Notes: generated by a model from the sequence alone, not told the origin. Shown: positions 2,676 to 17,480, counted from the first letter of the stretch. The stretch is DNA of 64,000 nt from Deltaproteobacteria bacterium HGW-Deltaproteobacteria-6 (GCA_002840435.1 PHAT01000005.1:484460-548459); one strand, 5' to 3'. Translations and numbers: made by a program.

Positions 2676-2793
2676 GAAAACTCCTTGCCGTTGCGTTATC
2701 CTTTGAAATTTAAAGGTTGTACATCTCTAGAGATATCTTTGAAAAATTTCAACCTCCTTTTTATCGTCACGCAAAGATAGTTAGACTATGTCA

Positions 2794-2822
2794 TTGACAT
2801 ACAAAACCGTTCTTCCTATAAT
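2794..2822 (+). promoter_or_regulatory. perfect sigma70-type consensus promoter TTGACA-17 nt-TATAAT upstream of the GMC/ferredoxin/AOR operon
   Basis: TTGACA at 2794-2799, a 17-nt spacer, and TATAAT at 2817-2822. Confidence 0.65.
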
Positions 2823-2841
2823 CGCCGTGAGCAAAAGCAGG

Positions 2842-2860
2842 TTCTTGTCCCGCACAAGAA
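2842..2860. promoter_or_regulatory. inverted repeat TTCTTGT-N5-ACAAGAA about 20 nt downstream of the -10 box (operator or 5'-UTR hairpin candidate)
   Basis: Left arm 2842-2848 is complementary to right arm 2854-2860. Confidence 0.4.
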
Positions 2861-2927
2861 TGTCGGCTCTTTTTAGATCGGACTTATAAACCAGTATTCA
2901 TCACAGAACAACCGGATGAGGTTTGAC

Positions 2928-4520
2928 ATGGAAGAGATCTTTGATTTTATTGTAATCGGATCGGGATTCGGCGGCAGTGTCGCCGCCTTGCGGCTGGCGG
3001 AAAAAGGCTATAGCGTTTGCGTTCTGGAAGCAGGCAAGCGCTGGCAGCCGAAGGACTTCCCCAACACCAACTGGAATGTCAGGAAATTTCTCTGGGCGCC
3101 GATCATCGGTTGCCACGGAATCCAACGCATCTGGCTGCTCAAGGATTTCATGGGGCTGGGCGGCGCGGGCGTCGGCGGCGGATCACTGGTTTATGCCATG
3201 GTTCTCATGCAGCCACTGGATCCTTTCTACCGCGATCCGCAATGGGTGGAACTTGACCCGGACTGGAAAGCGGCGTTAGCCCCGCATTACCGGATGGCCA
3301 GAAAAATGCTGGGTGTCGCCAAATTTCCCAAAATCACGGAACCGGACAAAGTCCTTGCCGAGTATGCCGCTGATATCGGACGCAGCGATCATTTCGCTCC
3401 GACGGAAGTAGGCGCTTTTTTCGGAGAGCCGGGTGTCACCGTCCCGGACCCGTATTTTGACGGAGAAGGTCCCGAAAGGACCGGTTGTGATTTTTCCGGG
3501 GCCTGTATGATCGGATGCAAAACCGGCGGCAAAAACACGCTGGACAAAAATTATCTCTATCTGGCTGAAAAGCTGGGTGCTCGCATCGTTCCTGAAACGC
3601 TGGTCACGGACATTCGACCGGACCCCCGCGGGGGCTATATCCTGAACTCCCGCAAGGCGACCTCCGTTTTTCCCACCGGCAAAAAAGCATGGCGGGCGCG
3701 TCAGGTCGTGGTCAGCGCCGGAACGCTCAACACGATATCGCTCCTTTTGCGCTCTAAGCAAAAGGGATTGCTTCCCGGATTATCGGACCGGCTCGGTTAT
3801 AAATTCCGCACCAATTCGGAAGTGCTTTGCGGCGGGCGGGCCAACTCGCTCGACGTCAAATACTGCGAAGGAACCGCGATCACCTCGATTCTTCAGGTTA
3901 ACGACGCCACGTCTATTGAAGTTACCCGCTACCCGGAAGGCTCCGATGTGATGGGAATACTGGCCCAGGTGCTGACCGACGGCGGCTCCAAGTGGGGAAG
4001 GGTCATGAAATATTTTTACCAGTGCCTGACCCATCCCACCCACTTTTTGAAAAGCTTGTGGATTTTCGGCTGGGCCAGACGGTCAATCATTCTGCTCGTC
4101 ATGCAGGTGTACGACAACAGCCTGAGAATCCGGCTGAAAAGAAATTGGCTTCTGCCCTGGCGCTGGCGTTTATCTTCCGAATCTCCGGAGGGAGGCATCC
4201 CGACATATATTCCGGAAGCCAACCACGCGGCGCGCGCGGTGGCGAAGAAGATCAACGGAATCCCGCAGGGCGCCGTCTCCGAAGTTCTGCTGAACCGGCC
4301 GCTTTCCGCTCACATGCTGGGCGGCTGCCCGATTGCCAAAGGGCCTGATCAGGGCGTGGTGGATAAGCACGGAAAGGTTTTCGGTTACGATGGCCTCTAC
4401 ATTGCGGATGGGTCCATCATGCCGGCCAATCTGGGCGTCAACCCGGCCCTGACCATCCTGGCCCTGGCGGAACATGTGATGACGGCGATACCACCAAAAG
4501 AAAAACAGGAGTTTTCATGA
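2928..4520 (+). CDS. GMC-family FAD-dependent oxidoreductase (cholesterol-oxidase/alcohol-dehydrogenase-like)
   Basis: N-terminal FAD fold DFIVIGSGFGGSVAALRLAEKG. C-terminal GMC signature HMLGGCP...GLYIADGSIMPANLGVNP. The ORF opens at 2916, but the ATG at 2928 has the better GAGG spacing. Confidence 0.8.
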   Translation: MEEIFDFIVIGSGFGGSVAALRLAEKGYSVCVLEAGKRWQPKDFPNTNWNVRKFLWAPIIGCHGIQRIWLLKDFMGLGGAGVGGGSLVYAMVLMQPLDPFYRDPQWVELDPDWKAALAPHYRMARKMLGVAKFPKITEPDKVLAEYAADIGRSDHFAPTEVGAFFGEPGVTVPDPYFDGEGPERTGCDFSGACMIGCKTGGKNTLDKNYLYLAEKLGARIVPETLVTDIRPDPRGGYILNSRKATSVFPTGKKAWRARQVVVSAGTLNTISLLLRSKQKGLLPGLSDRLGYKFRTNSEVLCGGRANSLDVKYCEGTAITSILQVNDATSIEVTRYPEGSDVMGILAQVLTDGGSKWGRVMKYFYQCLTHPTHFLKSLWIFGWARRSIILLVMQVYDNSLRIRLKRNWLLPWRWRLSSESPEGGIPTYIPEANHAARAVAKKINGIPQGAVSEVLLNRPLSAHMLGGCPIAKGPDQGVVDKHGKVFGYDGLYIADGSIMPANLGVNPALTILALAEHVMTAIPPKEKQEFS

Positions 4521-4933
4521 GTTATTCCATATCAACACTGTGTAACGGGTGCGGGGCCTGTGCTAAAATGTGCCCGGTGCAGGCCATATCGGGTGAAAAA
4601 AAAGAAATGCATCTCATCTGCGCATCGCTCTGCATTGAATGCGGCTCCTGCGGCAGGATATGCCCTGAATCGGCGGTTCTGGATGACAAGGGTAAAACGG
4701 TTGCCAGAATGAAGAAAGCGGACTGGCCGAAACCGGTGATCAACACGGACTGCTGCTCGGCCTGTGAAAACTGCGTGGCTGTCTGCCCGACGAACGCGCT
4801 CGCCATGGCCGATGAACGGCTGCCTCTGACCCGGAACCATGCGGTGCTTGCAAAGCCCGGCAAATGTGTGTCCTGCGGCTGGTGTAAAGAGAACTGCCTC
4901 TTCGACGCCATCACAATGAGAGGTGCAGCATGA
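4517..4933 (+). CDS. polyferredoxin with four Cys motifs for [4Fe-4S] clusters
   Basis: CNGCGACAKMCP, CIECGSCGRICP, CSACENCVAVCP and CVSCGWCKENC. ATGA start/stop overlaps with both neighbouring genes. Confidence 0.85.
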   Translation: MSYSISTLCNGCGACAKMCPVQAISGEKKEMHLICASLCIECGSCGRICPESAVLDDKGKTVARMKKADWPKPVINTDCCSACENCVAVCPTNALAMADERLPLTRNHAVLAKPGKCVSCGWCKENCLFDAITMRGAA

Positions 4934-6804
4934 AAGAGATCATAGGAACCAGCAACAAGTATCTGGACATTAACCTGACCGATAAGACCTGGAAGGTGCA
5001 CCAGGCCACACAGGACGATTTGAAGAACTATCTGGGCGGCAAAGGCCTGGGGCTCAAAATCATCTATGACCGCCTGAAAGATAAGCTTCGGGATCTCGAC
5101 CCTCTGGGGCCTGACAATTTGCTGGTCTTTGCCAACGGCGTACTGCTTACGACCGGGGCGCCCTGCTCGGCCCGGTTTGAAGTCATCACCAAGTCGCCGC
5201 TGACCGGCTACATGGTGGCTTCATCCTGCGGAGGCCCGTTCGGCGAAGCCTGCAAGACCGCCGGCTGGGATGGTGTGATCATTTCCGGCAAAGCGGAACG
5301 TCCCACGGTGATACGCTTCGACGACCAGGAGGTCATCTTCGAGCCCGCGGACGACCTATGGGGAGCAACGACGCATCAAACGCAGGAAAAACTTCACCTG
5401 GGTCCCAAAGAAGGAGCTGCCGTGATCGGACCGGCCGGTGAAAACAAGGTCTTCTATGCCAATATCTGTTCCGGCCACCGTTTTGCCGGACGCGGCGGTG
5501 TAGGGGCGGTCATGGGCGCGAAAAACCTCAAGGCCATCGTGGCCCGCGGGAAGGAATACCGCTGCATTCCGGTAAACCGGGAAAAGTTCGAAAGAACCCT
5601 GAAGAAAGCCAAAGCGCACATTCAGCGAAATGTATTTACCAGGGGATATAAGTTCTTTGGCACCAACATGAACACCCGTTTCGGCATTGACTCGGGTTAC
5701 TCTCCGGTGCGGAATTTCCGGGACCGTTACAGCCCCCAAACCGAGGCTATTACGGGTGAGGTGATGGCTGAAAAATATCAGACGCGGCATTCCACCTGCC
5801 GCTACTGCTCGGTGCTTTGTGGACATAAGGGCCTGTATCCCGATGGAAAAATGCGACAGATCCCGGAATACGAGACCACCGGTCTGTTTGGCAGCAATAT
5901 TGAAAATTATGATACGGACAAGATCGCCGTCTGGAACGACATCATGAACGACCTGGGGATGGATACCATCTCGGCAGGCGGTACGATGGCCTGGGCGATG
6001 GAGGCCGGTGAAAAGGGTTTACGCAAAACAGAATTATCCTTCGCCAATCATGATAACATTGCCCGCATCCTGGAAGATATCGCCTACCGCCGGGGCGAGG
6101 GGGCGGAGCTGGCGGACGGATCGAAGCGTTTAAGTGAGCAATACGGCGGCAGGGAATTTGCCATCCATACCAAAGGGCTGGAAATTGCGGCCTATGATCC
6201 CCGGGCCTGCTGGGGACACGGGCTTTCCTATGCGGTGCACAACAAAGGCGGCTGCCACCTCGGATCTTATCTGGTCAGCCTCGAAGTGCTCCTGGGTTTC
6301 ATGCCGTCACAGACAACACTCGGCAAGGCTTCCTGGGTGGTCTTTTGCGAGGATCTGTTTGCCGGCATCAACTCGCTCCAGTCCTGCCTGTTTACGGCCT
6401 TTGCCGTCATGACGGAGCCGGTCATCCCGAAATATCTTCCCAAAGCGGTCCTGAATGTCGCCACGATCATGACCCCCAGGATGTCGCAGATGATGATGAA
6501 CTGGAGCGTTTATTCCGATTTCTTTTCCGCCATTACGGGCATTCCCATGAATCAGTGGCAGTTCAAGAAAGCAGGCGAGCGCATTACCAAGCTGGAACGC
6601 TACATGAATGTGCAGATGGGGCAGCAGCCCTTCGAAGACACCCTGCCGGACCGGTTTACGAAAGAAGCTGTCACCAAATACCCCGTGGATTCCGTGGTAC
6701 CGATTGAACGGATGGTTAAAAAATATTACCGGATCAGGAAGTATGATCCGAAGACCGCCGGTCCCACCGTGGAAAATCTGAAACGCCTCGGAATTTCCGT
6801 TTGA
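4930..6804 (+). CDS. aor: aldehyde:ferredoxin oxidoreductase family (tungsten/molybdopterin AOR)
   Basis: 624 aa. AOR N-terminal domain (LDINLT...YLGGKGLG), CRYCSVLC cluster motif, and typical length. Confidence 0.85.
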   Translation: MKEIIGTSNKYLDINLTDKTWKVHQATQDDLKNYLGGKGLGLKIIYDRLKDKLRDLDPLGPDNLLVFANGVLLTTGAPCSARFEVITKSPLTGYMVASSCGGPFGEACKTAGWDGVIISGKAERPTVIRFDDQEVIFEPADDLWGATTHQTQEKLHLGPKEGAAVIGPAGENKVFYANICSGHRFAGRGGVGAVMGAKNLKAIVARGKEYRCIPVNREKFERTLKKAKAHIQRNVFTRGYKFFGTNMNTRFGIDSGYSPVRNFRDRYSPQTEAITGEVMAEKYQTRHSTCRYCSVLCGHKGLYPDGKMRQIPEYETTGLFGSNIENYDTDKIAVWNDIMNDLGMDTISAGGTMAWAMEAGEKGLRKTELSFANHDNIARILEDIAYRRGEGAELADGSKRLSEQYGGREFAIHTKGLEIAAYDPRACWGHGLSYAVHNKGGCHLGSYLVSLEVLLGFMPSQTTLGKASWVVFCEDLFAGINSLQSCLFTAFAVMTEPVIPKYLPKAVLNVATIMTPRMSQMMMNWSVYSDFFSAITGIPMNQWQFKKAGERITKLERYMNVQMGQQPFEDTLPDRFTKEAVTKYPVDSVVPIERMVKKYYRIRKYDPKTAGPTVENLKRLGISV

Positions 6805-6853
6805 ACACCGTAAAAAATCACGAAAGCATTGAATAAATGATGATGGAGAAAAA

Positions 6854-7333
6854 ATGAACTTATCACCTGAACAAATGATGGAAATTGCGCAGCATGCCTT
6901 TACGCGGATGGATGGAGCCTGGTTTCTGGCGCTGGCGAAAAAATTCGGCATTAAGACTGCCTGGGAGATGGATGTGGAAGCCTGGAAACAATTCTCTTAT
7001 GTTTTCGGTAAAAACCTCCGGAATAATTATATGGCAAATCCGGTTTGGCCGCAGAGCTTTCTCGATGCACTGGACATTTTCAGCAAAGTTTTAAAAATTG
7101 AAGGCCGGGACGTTACCGTTGACGGCGATCAAATCACGGTCCGTATTACGGATTGTGAAACACAGAAAGCCATCGCCAAGGCCGGCGTCGCCGATTGCGG
7201 GATCGTAACCGTTCAGTCGTATGAGGGAATCATCGGCGGCCTGTTTGACAGGGATGTCAATATCCATGTGGCCCATACGAAGAATTTAAATCACGGCGAT
7301 GACTGCTGCGAAGTCATTATTACCAGGAAGTAA
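6854..7333 (+). CDS. small conserved protein, possibly ATC-hydrolase/DUF6125-like fold (function unknown)
   Basis: 159 aa. MDGAWFLALAKKFG...W pattern and a C-terminal GDDCCEVII motif. GGAGA RBS. Co-directional, 50 nt after aor. Confidence 0.4.
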   Translation: MNLSPEQMMEIAQHAFTRMDGAWFLALAKKFGIKTAWEMDVEAWKQFSYVFGKNLRNNYMANPVWPQSFLDALDIFSKVLKIEGRDVTVDGDQITVRITDCETQKAIAKAGVADCGIVTVQSYEGIIGGLFDRDVNIHVAHTKNLNHGDDCCEVIITRK

Positions 7334-7402: not shown

Positions 7403-8008
7403 ATGAAAAAAGGATGTATCGTTTTAGTAATGTTGATGATGGTATTGTCGCTTTCGAACATTGCCGCAGCCAAGGCCAAAACGCCCGCAGTCGCCCGTGT
7501 GGCCTTTTCCGAGATCGATGCCAATGGCGACGCGGTGGTCACCGTAGCTGAGCACGTGGCTTTCTGGCAGGGACGATTCAAGGAGATCGACACGGATAAA
7601 GACGGTAAATTGACGGCAGCGGAATTCAACGCCGCGACCAAAGATTTTTTTGGAAACATGGATACGGATAAAGACGGCGTCCTGATTGCTAAAGAATACG
7701 TAGCTTTCTGGTGCGGTCCTAAAGCCAGCCCCGATAAAGCCAAAGCGAAAGTGAAAACCAAAACCAAAACCAAGAAAATACTGGATGCTGATAAAAATGG
7801 CAAAATCAGCGACGATGAGTGCCTTGTTTTCTGGTCGGTGGAGTTATTCGATTTAGATTCGAATCATGACGGGAAAGTGACCTTGGAGGAATTTATGGCG
7901 GGCATGACCAGGAGGTTCAATGAGATTGACAAAAATAAAGATGGATTCGTGGCCATTGAAGAACATGCGCTCTTCTGGTCGGGTAAGACCGCGCCGGTCA
8001 GGAAGTAA
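7403..8008 (+). CDS. secreted protein with six canonical EF-hand Ca2+-binding loops
   Basis: Signal peptide (…SNIAAAKA). Loops DANGDAVVTVAE, DTDKDGKLTAAE, DTDKDGVLIAKE, DADKNGKISDDE, DSNHDGKVTLEE and DKNKDGFVAIEE. GAAGGAGG RBS. Confidence 0.8.
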   Translation: MKKGCIVLVMLMMVLSLSNIAAAKAKTPAVARVAFSEIDANGDAVVTVAEHVAFWQGRFKEIDTDKDGKLTAAEFNAATKDFFGNMDTDKDGVLIAKEYVAFWCGPKASPDKAKAKVKTKTKTKKILDADKNGKISDDECLVFWSVELFDLDSNHDGKVTLEEFMAGMTRRFNEIDKNKDGFVAIEEHALFWSGKTAPVRK

Positions 8009-8110: not shown

Positions 8111-9217
8111 TTATTTCCCCCGGTCCGTGACATCGACAATAATCTCTTTATCGGCAAACATCGGAATGGTTTTGATCTTATCTGCGTTGAAGTTCAGCCG
8201 CTTGAGGTCAATTTTACGCAGATTGAAATTGTCATAGGTGCGGAAATAATAAACGCGGTTGGTCAGATCACGATACGTTGACCACTGGGTGGTCTCGGAG
8301 GCGATGATCTTGCCTTCCTTATTGCGATCCGCCGCCATGCCGCGGACGATATGCAGGGAACTGACAATATGCTGGGCCAGATTCAGAGCGTTTTCGGCAT
8401 TTTCCGGCGTATCTGCGAATCTGGTGGTTACCGCCATACGGACAAAACGCGCGGGCGGTGTAATGTCGCCGGGCAGGCCGAACATGCCGGAGCCATGGCC
8501 GGTGGTTAGATAGGTCTGTCCGCCGAATGTTGCCGGTTCCCGCATGCCGTTGGTCATGCCGACATAGTTACGCAGGTTGGTCAGCATCCAGGGAAAATTG
8601 GGCGCGTTGGTCATGATGCCCAGGGGGTTGTCGTAAATATGCAGTTCTCCCTTTTCGTATTCAATGACCACGCAGTCACCTTTGGCATCATAGAGGATAA
8701 AATGGCCGGGAAGCACCGCTCCGCCCAACTCCGGATTTTTTATGCCGAATACTTTGACTTTGGCAATCGCCTCGACCGCCTCTTTTACGGTGCTGAAATT
8801 TCCTAAAACCCATGACCCGAAAACAATATTGGCGAGTTCCGGGGATTTGTCTTTTGGATTAACAACTTGCCACTGCATATCGCCGTCATACCAGAGCAGG
8901 CTGAAGGACAGGCCTGCTTCATTGATGCCGTCGCTGATGCCGTCTTCCTTGTTCAGAACGTTGCTGGCTACATAACCGTATCTGGTTTTCCACTTTAATC
9001 CGGTGATTCCATCCGGTGCCGGGCTTGCGAAATTTTTATTGCGGGGAACCACAATCATGGCATAGCCCATGTCGTGGCCGAATTCCATGGTCCGGCCGCT
9101 GATAATCGTTCCATCTTTGGCGGTTACGCGAAAAACGGAGCAGGCGTAGACGTCCATAAAGTGGGCCAAAGCAAAAAATAAAAGGAACCCCATGCTAACA
9201 ATCCGTAATTTTTTCAT
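8111..9217 (-). CDS. secreted Ntn hydrolase, choloylglycine hydrolase / linear amide C-N hydrolase family
   Basis: A signal peptide is followed directly by the nucleophile Cys (…VYA|CSVFRV). 368 aa. Confidence 0.8.
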   Translation of the reverse strand: MKKLRIVSMGFLLFFALAHFMDVYACSVFRVTAKDGTIISGRTMEFGHDMGYAMIVVPRNKNFASPAPDGITGLKWKTRYGYVASNVLNKEDGISDGINEAGLSFSLLWYDGDMQWQVVNPKDKSPELANIVFGSWVLGNFSTVKEAVEAIAKVKVFGIKNPELGGAVLPGHFILYDAKGDCVVIEYEKGELHIYDNPLGIMTNAPNFPWMLTNLRNYVGMTNGMREPATFGGQTYLTTGHGSGMFGLPGDITPPARFVRMAVTTRFADTPENAENALNLAQHIVSSLHIVRGMAADRNKEGKIIASETTQWSTYRDLTNRVYYFRTYDNFNLRKIDLKRLNFNADKIKTIPMFADKEIIVDVTDRGK

Positions 9218-15586: not shown

Positions 15587-15615
15587 TTGACATCACATTC
15601 CTTTATTACTATAAT
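15587..15615 (+). promoter_or_regulatory. perfect sigma70-type consensus promoter TTGACA-17 nt-TATAAT upstream of the MCP gene
   Basis: TTGACA at 15587-15592, a 17-nt spacer, and TATAAT at 15610-15615. It lies about 150 nt upstream of the start codon. Confidence 0.65.
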
Positions 15616-15767
15616 AACAACAACTAAAGGTCTATTCTCAAACGATTTTCTGAAAACATCCTCTTTCGATATCAACATTTGTTTTTAAGGGATTGATCAT
15701 TCTTTTTACCTGCTTTTCGTTGGAACAAAAAACTATTCAGAATCTGTTGATGCCACAGGAGGTTCCT

Positions 15768-17480
15768 ATGAAGAAAAGAAGTCTGCAAAAAAGAATCCTG
15801 CTTCCCATCGTTTTGCTGATTATCATCATTATGGGCGCTTCAACCGCGATTACTTATTTATTGTCCTCCCGCGCATTTAAGGAAGACGCCGTCAGTTCAC
15901 TGGCCATGACCGCTGAGAATAAAGCCGACCTGATTGATGTCTGGGTGGAGGATGCCAAAGGCATGATTGCCACATCAGCCAATAAAACAGAGTTTAAAGA
16001 AGTGTTGAAAAACGACACGGAAGAAACAAGGGCAAAGGCCAATGGCGAATTAGCCGAGCAACTCAAGCACCTCGGTGTCTTCTCGTACATTAACATTGCT
16101 AATACCCAGGGTGAAGTACGGGCATCGACCATAACGGATTCCGTCGGTAAAGTTAAAGTGCCCGACCGGCAGTATTTTCAAAAGGCGATGCAGGGAGAAA
16201 TAAACGTCTCCATGGTTTATCTCGCCAGAACAACGGGCAAGCCGGCATTCGCCATTGCCGCGCCGATTAAAGACGGCGGCACAGTCATCGGCGTTCTGGT
16301 CGGTGTGCCGGACCTGACCAAATTCAGCGAAAAATTTGTCGATCCGGTTAAAATAGGAAACGGGGGCTACCTCTACCTTTTCGACGGATCGGGAATCGTT
16401 TTTGCGCACCGGGACAAATCTCTGATTATGAAACTGAATCTGAAGGATGAAAAATGGGCAAGTGGTATCATTCAAACCGGTAAAGGGCTGGTGTCTTACA
16501 CGTACAAAGGAATTGAGGGTACGGCCTTTCTCGTTCCCTGTAAAAACGTGAACTGGACCACAACCGCAGTCATCCCCACCAGCGAGATACTTTCCCGTTC
16601 CAACTCGATGGCGGTGATCAATCTGGTGCTGCTGGGCCTGGGGCTTATGCTGGTCATAGGTTCCATTTTCTTTATGGTCCGTTCGATTGTCGGACCGATC
16701 AATCAAATAACGGAAGGCCTGCACACCGTTGCAGATCAGGTGGCAACGGGGTCCAGCGAGGTTGCCTCGGCCGGTCAGTCGCTGGCGGATGGCTCGGCCA
16801 GACAGGCGTCAGCGATTGAAGAGACCTCCTCGTCGCTGGAGGAAATGACGGCCATGACCAGGCGAAACGCCGACAACGCCATACAGGCTAAAACCCTGAT
16901 GGCCGAAGCCCGGCATGTTGTGGAACGAGTCGATGAGCATGTCAACAGCATGGCCGCAGCGGTAGGCGAAGTGACACGGTCAAGCGAAGAAACGGGAAAA
17001 ATCATCAAAACCATCGATGAGATTGCATTTCAAACCAACCTGCTGGCTCTTAATGCCGCCGTGGAAGCGGCGCGCGCAGGTGAAGCGGGCGCGGGGTTTG
17101 CGGTGGTGTCCGATGAGGTGCGCAATCTGGCGATCCGCGCCGCCGACGCGGCCCGCAGCACATCTTCTCTGATCGAAAACACCATCACCACGGTACACAA
17201 AAGCCGTGAACTGACGGCGCAAACACAGACGGCTTTCAAGGAGAACATGGAAATTTCCGCCAAGGTCGGAAATCTGGTTGATGAAATTGCGGCGGCCTCA
17301 CAGGAACAGGCTCAGGGAATTGATCAAATCAGTAAAGCCGTAGCGGAAATGGACAAAGTCGTCCAGCAAACGGCGGCCAATGCCGAAGAATCCGCCGGCG
17401 CATCCGAGGAAATGAGCGGTCAAGCCACTCGTATGAAAAAATACGCCGATGATTTGACGGTCATTATTGCCGGCCGCTGA
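15768..17480 (+). CDS. methyl-accepting chemotaxis protein (periplasmic Cache-type sensor, HAMP, MA signalling domain)
   Basis: TM, roughly 270-aa periplasmic domain, TM, then a conserved signalling hairpin ([24 protein letters not shown]). AGGAGG RBS at the ATG 15768; the ORF opens at 15693. Confidence 0.9.

What the first reader, a model, noticed from the sequence alone, without database searches (positions are those of the whole stretch)
2794..7333. Translationally coupled GMC flavoenzyme - polyferredoxin - tungsten-type AOR operon behind a perfect consensus promoter
The GMC oxidoreductase stop overlaps the ferredoxin start (ATGA at 4517-4520). The ferredoxin stop overlaps the AOR start (ATGA at 4930-4933). 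A fourth small gene follows after 50 nt. A TTGACA-17-TATAAT promoter and a 7-bp inverted repeat precede the unit.

GMC enzymes classically oxidise alcohols or sterols to carbonyls using O2 or quinone-type acceptors. AOR oxidises aldehydes to acids with ferredoxin. A four-cluster polyferredoxin wedged between them suggests one electron-transfer complex. Two possible roles are stepwise alcohol to aldehyde to acid oxidation, or aldehyde dismutation in which AOR-reduced ferredoxin drives the flavoenzyme in reverse.

A ferredoxin-linked GMC enzyme in an anaerobe would be unusual. Beta-oxidation genes on both sides hint at long-chain alcohol or aldehyde substrates.
Basis: partly seen in the sequence, partly recalled or inferred. 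Interest (0 to 1): 0.65.

Follow-up and report, generated by a model that had tools for sequence, protein, structure and literature searches.

The report
GMC flavoenzyme joined to ferredoxin–AOR operon
In one lineage of the syntrophic Smithella group, a flavin alcohol-oxidising enzyme with a predicted iron-sulfur cluster sits directly in front of a conserved two-gene tungsten-type aldehyde oxidoreductase, probably forming an alcohol-to-acid route, but the link is recent, optional and untested.

Summary
The genes, both ATGA overlaps, the four-cluster ferredoxin and the perfect TTGACA-17-TATAAT promoter are at the stated coordinates.

- **Conserved unit:** only the polyferredoxin plus AOR pair. 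It overlaps in every one of about 20 loci, out to Spirochaetes.
- **GMC gene:** it carries its own promoter and is variable. It lies upstream of Fd-AOR in 7 related Smithellaceae contigs (two different genomic contexts), is missing from the same site in the closest AOR relatives, and stands alone in 9 other loci. One genome has GMC and Fd-AOR 1.3 Mb apart.
- **Fourth gene and 7-bp repeats:** not conserved.

Two results favour a functional link:
- The GMC family has an invariant C-x5-C-M-x2-C loop. It has the same spacing as, and is collinear with, the 3Fe-4S site of FAD-glucose and fructose dehydrogenases. It is therefore probably an Fe-S dehydrogenase, not an oxidase.
- This AOR clade repeatedly sits next to, or is fused with, aldehyde-related enzymes (Fe-ADH, transaminases, a TPP decarboxylase).

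Best reading: a co-transcribed alcohol to aldehyde to acid module. A physical GMC-ferredoxin-AOR complex is possible but unproven. I rate it a new variant of a known kind, of moderate interest.

The parts
2794..2822 (+). Sigma-70-type promoter, TTGACA-17-TATAAT, belonging to the GMC gene.
   Evidence: It matches 12 of 12 consensus positions. The window has 2 perfect sites against 0.01 expected. The hexamers are conserved in L009, L010 and L011. In the GMC-alone locus L012, TTGACATACAAAAC is identical.
2787..2801 (.). Perfect 7-bp inverted repeat TATGTCA-t-TGACATA overlapping the -35 hexamer. It is probably not a conserved operator.
   Evidence: Found. It is not conserved in the orthologous promoters. 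Its excess over chance is marginal, P about 0.04 for two such repeats.
2842..2860 (+). Second 7-bp inverted repeat, TTCTTGT-N5-ACAAGAA, in the roughly 100-nt leader.
   Evidence: Found. Its sequence is not conserved in L009-L011. No Rfam family matches the leader.
2916..4520 (+). ChoD/cholesterol-oxidase-like GMC flavoprotein (likely start at 2928). It has the FAD-binding motif GSGFGG, the catalytic residues His466 and Asn509, and an invariant Cys191-x5-Cys197-Met-x2-Cys201 loop predicted to bind an Fe-S cluster.
   Evidence: Pfam GMC_oxred_N and GMC_oxred_C match. NF058674 scores 570 bits, below its 850 cut-off. The Cys loop is invariant in 119 of 119 homologues and present in 68 of 71 distant representatives. 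The AF2 model has pLDDT 91. Foldseek ranks cholesterol oxidase first, then fructose DH and FAD-GDH.
4517..4933 (+). A 138-aa polyferredoxin with 4 x [4Fe-4S] motifs, inferred to be the electron-transfer subunit of the AOR. It resembles FwdF and MvhB, and it has no C-terminal filament helix.
   Evidence: Four Fer4 stretches match. All 16 Cys are invariant in 14 orthologues, each 138 aa long. It lies directly upstream of, and overlaps, the AOR gene in every locus. The closest PDB matches are FwdF and MvhB; no AorA, WorS or WOR5-S chain is listed.
4930..6804 (+). AOR-family (tungsto/molybdopterin) aldehyde oxidoreductase catalytic subunit.
   Evidence: AFOR_N and AFOR_C match. The closest PDB chains are 1aor at 1e-106, 9mqx_D and 8c0z. 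The CxxCxxxC...C cluster ligands and the EYE, DxGxDT and GGCH motifs align with P. furiosus AOR.

Best explanation
The conserved machine is a two-subunit aldehyde oxidoreductase. One subunit is a 138-aa polyferredoxin with four [4Fe-4S] clusters. The other is an AOR-type pterin subunit with its own [4Fe-4S] cluster. The two genes are always translationally coupled.

In one Smithellaceae lineage, which includes this window, a GMC flavoprotein gene with its own consensus promoter lies within 0-8 nt upstream of that pair. All three genes are therefore transcribed from the GMC promoter.

The GMC protein is inferred to be an Fe-S-containing, oxygen-independent alcohol dehydrogenase: FAD, then a 3Fe-4S-type cluster, then an external acceptor.

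The most likely function of the joined unit is sequential oxidation.
1. GMC oxidises an alcohol to an aldehyde.
2. The AOR oxidises the aldehyde to the acid.
3. Electrons leave through Fe-S carriers, and the acid can enter beta-oxidation.

Shown here: gene anatomy, co-transcription geometry, conservation of the Fd-AOR pair, variability of GMC, and conservation of the Cys loop and catalytic residues.

Inferred: the Fe-S cluster itself, the substrate class, the pathway link, and any physical contact between GMC and the polyferredoxin.
For: **Fd-AOR is the conserved unit**
- The pair is present, and overlaps, in all informative AOR loci down to 65-69% identity. These include Spirochaeta isovalerica and a Desulfobacterales contig.
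- The AOR cofactor motifs are intact.

**GMC joins it in two contexts**
- The trio occurs in the window, L009, L010, L011, L018 and L030, with the aminotransferase upstream where the contig reaches that far.
- It also occurs in L008 with different flanks, followed by an acyl-CoA synthetase.
- There is no room for a separate promoter between the genes.
- The GMC promoter is conserved, including in the GMC-alone locus L012.

**GMC looks like an Fe-S dehydrogenase**
- The C-x5-C-M-x2-C-x2-G loop is invariant in 119 of 119 homologues and kept in 68 of 71 distant representatives. Most of the distant ones have the full CxxCxxCxxxC form.
- The spacing is identical to Cys212/218/222, which bind the 3Fe-4S cluster of B. 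cepacia FAD-GDH (PMC6719666; sequence).
- An HMM alignment is collinear with the conserved AE+xGA+I segment.
- FDH and FAD-GDH rank directly after cholesterol oxidase in Foldseek.

**This AOR clade repeatedly pairs with enzymes that make or use aldehydes**
- Fe-ADH::AOR fusions: P0230, P0233, P0234 and a gene in L032.
- Fd-AOR-FeADH with overlapping starts in L033.
- Fe-ADH two genes upstream of Fd-AOR, on the opposite strand, in L027.
- Class-III aminotransferases upstream in L036.
- TPP decarboxylase plus Zn-ADH in L011, L018 and L032.

**Other support**
- An esterase::GMC fusion (P0258) and a GDSL lipase after the AOR in L018 fit an alcohol substrate released from esters.
- Syntrophic alcohol oxidation through a tungsten AOR has a precedent in Pelobacter (PMC4275255).
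Against: **GMC and Fd-AOR are not obligate partners**
- The closest AOR relatives, L019 and L020 (88%), have no GMC upstream.
- L020, L023-L026 and L032 have Fd-AOR at the same aminotransferase-flanked site without GMC.
- GMC orthologues at 83-92% identity (L012, L013, L007, L001) and at 69-72% (L003, L005, L014-16) stand alone.
- In chromosome OY820932.1 the two are 1.3 Mb apart.
- Adjacency is patchy on both the AOR and GMC trees.

**The substrate inference is weak**
- The nearest characterised relatives of GMC oxidise a secondary alcohol to a ketone, which is not an AOR substrate.

**The conserved neighbourhood points elsewhere**
- The conserved Smithellaceae neighbours of Fd-AOR suggest amino-acid-derived aldehydes rather than alcohols.

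**Limits of the evidence**
- The Fe-S cluster is inferred from sequence only. The short-fragment HMM score is significant for FDH (0 of 2000 shuffles reach it) but not for BcGDH (318 of 2000).
- No expression or biochemical data were available.
Confidence: 0.5

Rival explanations
1. Incidental juxtaposition. The GMC gene with its promoter landed between the aminotransferase and Fd-AOR, or was repeatedly deleted from there. The three genes are co-transcribed, but GMC and Fd-AOR serve unrelated pathways and share no substrate or electrons.
For: - GMC is usually monocistronic, in varied contexts, across phyla.
- Fd-AOR works without an adjacent GMC in the nearest relatives and at the same locus.
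- One genome has both genes, unlinked.
- The promoter is GMC's own.
- The GMC/Fd ATGA overlap arose from a single stop-codon change.
- The home neighbourhood of Fd-AOR is an aminotransferase, TPP decarboxylase and ADH set.
Against: - The trio occurs in two different genomic contexts, the window type and L008/L017, each with very tight spacing.
- Fd-AOR has given up its own promoter region in these loci.
- The AOR clade is repeatedly associated with alcohol dehydrogenases elsewhere.
- L008 adds an acyl-CoA synthetase, which completes an alcohol-to-acyl-CoA route.
Confidence: 0.3
2. One physical complex. GMC docks on the polyferredoxin as an alternative flavin 'plug', analogous to AorC in AorABC or to the Bfu module in WorABCSL. 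Electrons pass between the tungsten site and the GMC FAD through five [4Fe-4S] clusters and the GMC Fe-S cluster. This would allow aldehyde dismutation, with AOR-derived electrons reducing a carbonyl at GMC. Alternatively, both oxidations would deliver their electrons into one wire.
For: - There are precedents for modular flavoprotein caps on polyferredoxin-AOR units. In AorABC the FS4-to-FAD distance is 9.5 A (PMC10413684). In WorABCSL a Bfu module acts as a plug (PMC12318220).
- In BcGDH the homologous 3Fe-4S cluster sits at the protein surface and hands electrons to a partner subunit (PMC6719666).
- Gene spacing is tight, and three lineages evolved a GMC/Fd overlap.
- Pelobacter grows by acetaldehyde disproportionation using an AOR.
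Against: - The polyferredoxin is the same length, with the same invariant residues, whether or not GMC is adjacent.
- GMC orthologues more than 90% identical live without Fd-AOR nearby.
- The polyferredoxin is not an AorA or WorS homologue at E<=1e-6 and lacks their C-terminal helix.
- No structural or interaction test could be run.
Confidence: 0.15
3. GMC is a genuine sterol 3-beta-hydroxysteroid (cholesterol) oxidase or dehydrogenase, working on steroids or bile acids together with the nearby choloylglycine-hydrolase-family gene. The AOR would be unrelated.
For: - The best NCBIfam model is cholesterol oxidase ChoxAB, matched over its full length at 570 bits.
- The closest solved structures are class I cholesterol oxidases.
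- JGI names for homologues say 'cholesterol oxidase'.
- A CBAH-family gene lies at 8111-9217.
Against: - The score is well below the equivalog cut-off of 850.
- Identity to solved cholesterol oxidases is only about 21%.
- The CBAH gene is on the opposite strand and absent from all related loci.
- Solved cholesterol oxidases do not align across the Cys loop.
Confidence: 0.05

Closest known systems
AorABC, the NAD-linked tungsten aldehyde oxidoreductase of Aromatoleum aromaticum (N-type WOR; PDB 8c0z)
   Same: - An AOR catalytic subunit is paired with a roughly 137-aa double-ferredoxin subunit carrying four CxxCxxCxxxC clusters.
- A flavoprotein is encoded alongside them.
- Electrons run from the tungsten site through [4Fe-4S] clusters to a flavin (PMC10413684).
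- AorB is a clear homologue of the window AOR (1e-79).
   Different: - The flavoprotein here is a GMC enzyme encoded upstream, not an AorC-type NAD-binding subunit.
- The polyferredoxin is FwdF/MvhB-like. No AorA chain appears among the listed PDB hits at E<=1e-6.
- It ends 11 residues after the last Cys, so it lacks the 20-residue C-terminal helix that builds the AorA filament.
- The flavoprotein is optional in close relatives.
WorSL modules of the WOR family: P. furiosus WOR5, and A. mobile WorABCSL with its Bfu 'plug'
   Same: - A large tungstopterin subunit is paired with a small four-cluster subunit encoded next to it.
- Different electron-output modules can be attached to this pair (PMC12318220).
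- A. mobile WorL (9mqx_D) is the second-best solved match of the window AOR (3e-103).
   Different: - There are no BfuABC genes here.
- The small subunit is not a detectable WorS or WOR5-S homologue.
- The paper lists clade 87 types BF, N, M and U, and no heterodimeric SL type. Neither an SL-only unit nor a GMC-linked one is described there.
3Fe-4S-containing GMC dehydrogenases: B. cepacia FAD-glucose dehydrogenase alpha subunit (6a2u) and Gluconobacter fructose dehydrogenase large subunit (7w2j)
   Same: - They share the GMC fold.
- The Cys spacing C-x5-C-M-x2-C-x2-G is identical, at a collinear position before the AE+xGA+I strand.
- They are the next-best structural matches after cholesterol oxidase, with TM about 0.63-0.66.
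- In those enzymes the cluster relays electrons from FAD to a partner subunit.
   Different: - Those enzymes are periplasmic or membrane-bound, with a multi-haem cytochrome c subunit and a TAT 'hitchhiker' subunit. Neither partner is encoded here, and GMC has no signal peptide.
- Sequence identity is only about 17%.
- The cluster in the window protein is predicted, not shown.
Class I cholesterol oxidase (Streptomyces ChoA, Brevibacterium; 1b4v, 1coy) and NCBIfam NF058674 ChoxAB
   Same: - These are the best sequence and structure matches.
- The catalytic His447 and Asn485 equivalents, His466 and Asn509, are invariant in the family.
   Different: - Identity is about 21%, and the score is below the equivalog cut-off.
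- The invariant Cys loop has no aligned counterpart in ChoA.
- ChoA is a secreted O2-dependent oxidase, whereas this family is widespread in anaerobes.
ADH plus AOR routes in anaerobes: Pelobacter syntrophic ethanol oxidation, and acid reduction in acetogens and Thermoanaerobacter
   Same: An alcohol-oxidising or alcohol-forming enzyme teams up with a tungsten AOR to interconvert alcohol, aldehyde and acid (PMC4275255; PMC10816221 listed). The same AOR clade is fused to, or coupled with, Fe-ADH.
   Different: Here the alcohol enzyme would be a flavin/Fe-S GMC dehydrogenase rather than an NAD(P)-dependent ADH.

Membership tests
GMC oxidoreductase superfamily | N-terminal FAD-binding GxGxxG fold, with the GMC_oxred_N and GMC_oxred_C domains above Pfam thresholds. 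| tested here: met
   GSGFGG lies at residues 15-20. PF00732 scores 37.8 bits (cut-off 23) and PF05199 scores 63.5 bits (cut-off 24.6). The AF2 model has pLDDT 91, and all top Foldseek hits are GMC enzymes.
GMC oxidoreductase superfamily | Catalytic His and Asn (or His) pair in the C-terminal domain. | tested here: met
   His466 aligns with ChoA His447, and Asn509 with Asn485. Both are present in 119 of 119 homologues.
Cholesterol oxidase ChoxAB (NCBIfam NF058674, equivalog) | Whole-protein score at or above the curated cut-off of 850 bits. | tested here: not met
   The score is 570.5 bits over the full length. The protein is related but is not an equivalog.
3Fe-4S-type GMC dehydrogenases (FAD-GDH / fructose DH) | Three Cys ligands, C-x5-C-x3-C, in the loop before the AE+xGA strand. 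| tested here: met
   Cys191/197/201 are invariant. The spacing equals that of Cys212/218/222, and the HMM alignment is collinear. Whether a cluster is actually bound cannot be tested with these tools.
3Fe-4S-type GMC dehydrogenases (FAD-GDH / fructose DH) | A multi-haem cytochrome c subunit and a small TAT-signal 'hitchhiker' subunit encoded alongside, with periplasmic location. | tested here: not met
   No such genes occur in the window unit or in any related locus. The GMC N-terminus runs straight into the FAD motif.
AOR / WOR family (tungsto- or molybdopterin aldehyde oxidoreductases) | AFOR_N plus AFOR_C domains, [4Fe-4S] ligands CxxCxxxC...C, pterin-binding DxxGxD motifs, and active-site Glu and His. 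| tested here: met
   Pfam E-values are 1e-68 and 9e-107. The alignment to 1aor keeps CRYCSVLC, PEYE, DLGMDT, GGCH and CLFT.
AOR / WOR family (tungsto- or molybdopterin aldehyde oxidoreductases) | Tungsten rather than molybdenum at the active site. | not testable with these tools
   This is only a family-level expectation. Pelobacter expresses a Mo isoenzyme under tungsten limitation.
AorABC-type (N-type) WOR | An AorA-type polyferredoxin with the conserved C-terminal filament helix of about 20 residues. | tested here: not met
   All 14 orthologues are 138 aa long and end 11 residues after the last Cys. The AorA core alone ends at D137, before the helix. No 8c0z small-subunit chain is among the 60 listed of the 72 PDB hits at E<=1e-6.
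AorABC-type (N-type) WOR | An AorC-type FAD/NAD(P)-binding subunit gene in the cluster. | tested here: not met
   None is present in the window or in related loci. In the window, a GMC flavoprotein is the only flavoprotein of the unit.
Bifurcating WorABCSL (BF-type) | BfuABC (NuoF/NuoE/HydA-like) genes next to WorSL. | tested here: not met
   They are absent from the window unit and from all loci examined.
Heterodimeric WorSL (WOR5-like) | A small four-[4Fe-4S] subunit encoded beside the large subunit. | tested here: met
   The protein has four CxxCxxCxxxC motifs, and its gene overlaps the AOR start in every locus.
Heterodimeric WorSL (WOR5-like) | The small subunit is homologous to WOR5-S / WorS. 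| tested here: not met
   The profile search finds FwdF and MvhB at 1e-29. No 6x1o, 6x6u or 9mqx small-subunit chain is listed. Structural comparison failed because the single-sequence model reached only pLDDT 33.

The most novel reading that the evidence does not exclude
The ChoD/'cholesterol-oxidase-like' GMC clade may consist of unrecognised iron-sulfur flavoprotein dehydrogenases. It is very large: 1,141 clusters at E<=1e-30 among 50%-identity representatives. In Smithella one member would dock on an FwdF-like polyferredoxin-AOR pair as a new kind of flavin 'plug'. The result would be a single GMC-polyferredoxin-tungsten enzyme that moves all four electrons of alcohol-to-acid oxidation, or of aldehyde dismutation, through one Fe-S wire.
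Probability: 0.15. Interest if true: 0.8.

Novelty: new variant of a known kind. Interest (0 to 1): 0.5.

Why it matters
**If the pathway link is real.** Syntrophic Smithella would have an NAD-independent route from alcohols to fatty acids. Such alcohols could be released from wax or other esters. Electrons would be delivered at Fe-S or ferredoxin level, which matters for hydrogen or formate production at the thermodynamic limit.

**The Cys loop, independent of that link.**
- It gives a directly testable prediction: a very large and widely mis-named 'cholesterol oxidase' family is an Fe-S-containing dehydrogenase family.
- That would explain why these enzymes are abundant in anaerobes.
- It would extend the 3Fe-4S GMC type beyond periplasmic sugar dehydrogenases.

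**For tungsten enzymes.**
- This adds an AOR close to the P. furiosus, A. mobile and A. aromaticum group (clade 87) that has a non-WorS, FwdF-like small subunit.
- In some strains it also has a GMC partner. Neither arrangement is among the four types listed in the 2025 survey.

Tried and rejected
- **Operator reading of the 7-bp repeats.** Rejected. They are not conserved in orthologous promoters, and their excess over chance is only marginal.
- **Riboswitch or leader RNA** (for example a Moco/Wco type) upstream of GMC or of Fd in GMC-less loci. No Rfam match was found in the window or in six loci.
- **Fourth gene (DUF6125/ATC-hydrolase-like) as part of the unit.** Rejected. No homologue lies next to the AOR in any other locus.
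- **Paralogues of GMC, Fd or AOR elsewhere in the window.** None were found.
- **PDB search with the 57-aa Cys-loop fragment.** No hits. The comparison was made instead through the BcGDH/FDH fragment retrieved and an HMM with shuffles.
- **Structure of the polyferredoxin.**
  - The single-sequence model was useless, with pLDDT 33, so no fold comparison with AorA or WorS was possible.
- **SCP2-like guess for the C-terminal extension of Spirochaete AORs.** Pfam does not support it.
- **Literature searches** for ChoxA/ChoxB, for GMC plus AOR in Smithella, and for an Fe-S cluster in ChoD/Rv3409c. Nothing relevant was found. My recollection that M. tuberculosis ChoD belongs to this Cys-loop clade is memory only and was not tested.
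- **Base composition.** It gives no sign that the trio is foreign DNA.

Full report
**1. What is in the sequence**

- The promoter TTGACA-17-TATAAT lies at 2794-2822 (12 of 12 matches). Only two such perfect sites exist in the 64-kb window, against 0.01 expected.
- A 534-aa GMC flavoprotein is encoded at 2916-4520. The ATG at 2928 has the better Shine-Dalgarno sequence.
- A 138-aa protein with four CxxCxxCxxxC motifs is encoded at 4517-4933.
- A 624-aa AOR-family protein is encoded at 4930-6804.
- A 159-aa DUF6125/ATC-hydrolase-like gene follows at 6854-7333.
- Both ATGA overlaps are real.
- Two perfect 7-bp inverted repeats exist, at 2787-2801 over the -35 hexamer and at 2842-2860 in the leader. 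This is a marginal excess over shuffles (P about 0.04).
- Record titles of the closest genome matches place the window in Smithella/Smithellaceae.

**2. The proteins**

*AOR*
- It keeps every cofactor motif of P. furiosus AOR: CxxCxxxC...C, EYE, DxGxDT and GGCH.
- Its best solved relatives are P. furiosus AOR (1e-106), A. mobile WorL (9mqx_D) and A. aromaticum AorB.

*Polyferredoxin*
- All 14 orthologues compared are 138 aa long, and all 16 Cys are invariant.
- As a profile it matches the FwdF and MvhB polyferredoxins (1e-29).
- No AorA, WorS, WOR5-S or BamC chain appears among the listed PDB hits at E<=1e-6.
- It ends 11 residues after the last Cys. It therefore lacks the 20-residue C-terminal helix that makes AorA and WorS polymerise (PMC10413684; PMC12318220).

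*GMC protein*
- It matches the NCBIfam cholesterol-oxidase model over its full length, but at 570 bits against a cut-off of 850.
- Its closest solved structures are class I cholesterol oxidases at about 21% identity. Fructose dehydrogenase and FAD-glucose dehydrogenase come immediately after.
- The catalytic residues His466 and Asn509 are invariant in the family.

**3. A conserved Cys loop in the GMC family**

- Cys191, Cys197 and Cys201 (C-x5-C-M-x2-C-x2-G-G) are invariant in 119 of 119 homologues at 53-93% identity.
- They are also present in 68 of 71 full-length representatives at 33-52% identity. Most of these show the full ferredoxin-like CxxCxxCxxxC motif, whereas the window's subfamily has Ser or Thr at the second position.
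- In B. cepacia FAD-GDH the 3Fe-4S cluster is bound by Cys212, Cys218 and Cys222. It lies at the protein surface and passes electrons from FAD to the partner subunit (PMC6719666).
- The GDH and FDH sequence CCGNNNCMPICPIGAMYNG...AE+xGAK+I has the same spacing. In an HMM alignment it is collinear with the window family's loop and with the following AEKLGA+I segment.
- That short-fragment score is significant for FDH (0 of 2000 shuffles reach it) but weak for GDH (318 of 2000).
- I therefore infer that this GMC family binds an Fe-S cluster and acts as a dehydrogenase rather than an O2-dependent oxidase. The inference rests on sequence alone.
- I found no paper in the library that reports this for the family.

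**4. Is the gene order conserved?**

I compared 36 loci from metagenomes and genomes.

*Fd-AOR is always together.*
- The pair overlaps in every informative locus.
- This includes Spirochaeta isovalerica (AOR 68% identical) and a Desulfobacterales contig (69%).

*GMC is variable.*
- GMC-Fd-AOR occurs in the window, L009, L010, L011, L018 and L030. The aminotransferase is visible upstream in L009, L010 and L011.
- It also occurs in L008, with different flanks: a SpoIIE-type gene upstream and an acyl-CoA synthetase 88 nt downstream.
- L017 has the same upstream sequence as L008 but ends inside GMC.
- L020, L023-L026 and L032 have aminotransferase | Fd-AOR at the same site with no GMC.
- L019, L021, L022, L027, L033, L035 and L036 have Fd-AOR without GMC in other contexts.
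- L019 and L020 are the closest relatives of the window AOR (88%), and neither has GMC upstream of Fd.
- GMC stands alone in L012 (92%), L013 (89%), L007 (87%), L001 (83%), L003 (72%), and L005 and L014-16 (about 69%).
- In chromosome OY820932.1, GMC lies at 3.80 Mb (L013) and aminotransferase-Fd-AOR at 2.46 Mb (L032).
- On neighbour-joining trees the adjacency is patchy for both proteins.

**5. Promoter and junctions**

- The -35 and -10 hexamers are conserved in L009, L010 and L011. They are also conserved upstream of the stand-alone GMC gene of L012, where TTGACATACAAAAC is identical. The promoter is therefore part of the GMC gene module.
- GMC-less loci carry a different, AT-rich promoter region in front of Fd.
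- In four window-type loci GMC ends at a TAG, 7-8 nt before the Fd start. In the window that TAG is CAG, so the reading frame continues to the ATGA overlap.
- L010 and L008 also reach an ATGA overlap through extended GMC C-termini with different sequences.
- The GMC/Fd overlap is thus recent, whereas the Fd/AOR overlap is ancient.
- In every trio locus there is no space for a promoter or terminator between the genes. Co-transcription from the GMC promoter is the only reasonable reading, although no expression data were available.

**6. What the AOR clade associates with**

- Fe-ADH::AOR fusion proteins occur: P0230, P0233, P0234 and a gene in L032.
- TetR-Fd-AOR-FeADH occurs in S. isovalerica, with Fd, AOR and Fe-ADH overlapping at each junction.
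- An Fe-ADH lies two genes upstream of Fd-AOR, on the opposite strand, in L027.
- Two class-III aminotransferases lie directly upstream in L036.
- The conserved Smithellaceae neighbourhood has a class-I aminotransferase on one side and a TPP-dependent decarboxylase plus Zn-ADH on the other (L011, L018, L032).
- All of these enzymes make or consume aldehydes. The Fd-AOR pair therefore looks like a general aldehyde-oxidising module placed beside different aldehyde sources.
- A GMC alcohol dehydrogenase fits that pattern.
  - L008 adds an acyl-CoA synthetase.
  - L018 adds a GDSL lipase 19 nt after the AOR.
  - One distant GMC relative is fused to an esterase (P0258).

**7. Mechanism**

- *Most likely (about 0.5).* The unit is a co-transcribed alcohol to aldehyde to acid module. 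GMC would run FAD to Fe-S to acceptor, and the AOR would run W-pterin to [4Fe-4S] to the four-cluster subunit to acceptor. Precedents for ADH plus tungsten AOR in syntrophic alcohol oxidation, and for aldehyde dismutation, exist in Pelobacter (PMC4275255).
- *Physical complex (about 0.15).* A GMC-polyferredoxin complex would be analogous to the AorC cap (FS4-FAD 9.5 A) or the Bfu plug. It is possible but untested. The polyferredoxin shows no GMC-specific features.
- *Incidental juxtaposition (about 0.3).* This remains a serious rival, because each partner is found without the other in near-identical form.
- *Genuine sterol oxidase (about 0.05).* This is unlikely.

**8. Comparison with known systems and novelty**

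- The closest analogues in how the unit works are AorABC and the WorSL modules with exchangeable plugs.
- Membership in those subfamilies fails on three points: the small subunit's homology, the C-terminal helix, and the partner genes.
- The 2025 survey of clade 87 lists BF, N, M and U types and no heterodimeric SL type.
- An AOR close to clade-87 members with an FwdF-like small subunit, and in some strains a GMC partner, is therefore a new variant of a known kind. It is not categorically new.
- The Fe-S prediction for the ChoD-like GMC clade is the most testable new point. The clade has 13,196 clusters at E<=1e-3 and 1,141 at E<=1e-30.

**9. Verdict**

A pathway link is plausible, a single complex is unproven, and the conservation criterion is met only for Fd-AOR.
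- Interest is 0.5.

Noticed in passing
window 6854-7333 (+): A 159-aa DUF6125/ATC-hydrolase-like protein ending in ...GDDCCEVIITRK lies 49 nt after the AOR. It has no counterpart beside the AOR in any related locus, so it is probably not part of the unit.
   Followed up: partly
window 7403-8008 (+): A 201-aa protein has a hydrophobic N-terminus and several EF-hands. It matches the lanmodulin model NF053806 at 61 bits, below the cut-off of 135. It could be a secreted metal-binding protein.
   Followed up: no
window 15587-15615 (+): A second perfect TTGACA-17-TATAAT promoter lies about 80 nt upstream of a dCache/MCP chemoreceptor gene (15693-17480). Two perfect sites in 64 kb compare with 0.01 expected.
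   Followed up: partly
P0241-P0390: The wider ChoD-like GMC clade mostly carries a full CxxCxxCxxxC motif at the loop, where the window's subfamily has C-x2-S/T-x2-C-x3-C. This suggests a 4-Cys to 3-Cys switch, as between 4Fe-4S and 3Fe-4S sites.
   Followed up: partly
P0258 (847 aa): This protein fuses an alpha/beta-hydrolase-3 (esterase/lipase) domain to the N-terminus of a GMC protein of this clade. That hints at alcohol substrates released from esters.
   Followed up: no
L034 6001-9102 (P0230); also P0233, P0234; L032 12317-13875 (-): Single polypeptides fuse an iron-containing alcohol dehydrogenase to an AOR of the same clade (57% identity to the window AOR). The ADH is N-terminal in P0230 and apparently C-terminal in the L032 gene.
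   Followed up: partly
L033 5589-9983 (Spirochaeta isovalerica): TetR, polyferredoxin (141 aa), AOR (778 aa) and Fe-ADH (549 aa) lie in a row, and the last three genes overlap at each junction. Spirochaete AORs carry a C-terminal extension of about 150 aa that has a hydrophobic stretch and no Pfam match.
   Followed up: partly
L036 2841-8846: In a Desulfobacterales-like contig, two class-III aminotransferases lie directly upstream of Fd-AOR and an amidohydrolase_2 gene lies downstream, with a sigma-54 activator nearby. This may be an amine to aldehyde to acid module.
   Followed up: no
L011 13209-17549, L018 5966-8530, L032 9688-13875: The conserved Smithellaceae neighbourhood of Fd-AOR has Zn-ADH and a TPP-dependent decarboxylase on the opposite strand, followed in L011 by an acyl-CoA dehydrogenase. 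The aminotransferase lies upstream. Together these form an Ehrlich-type set. The window lacks this downstream block.
   Followed up: partly
window about 2744-2765 and the equivalent position in L009-L011, L020, L023-L026: The element (C)TGAATTTTTCAACCTCC(TTTTT) is conserved on the aminotransferase side of the divergent intergenic region in all Smithellaceae loci, whether or not GMC is present. Its function is unknown.
   Followed up: no
L012 4091-7675: In the GMC-alone locus L012, the gene directly upstream of GMC on the same strand is an ABC-transporter ATPase with a TOBE domain. Three further upstream ORFs were not annotated. TOBE domains occur in molybdate/tungstate-type transporters, but this link was not examined.
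   Followed up: no
window 8111-9217 (-): A choloylglycine-hydrolase-family (linear amide C-N hydrolase) gene lies near a 'cholesterol-oxidase-like' gene. The pairing is suggestive but is not conserved in any related locus.
   Followed up: partly
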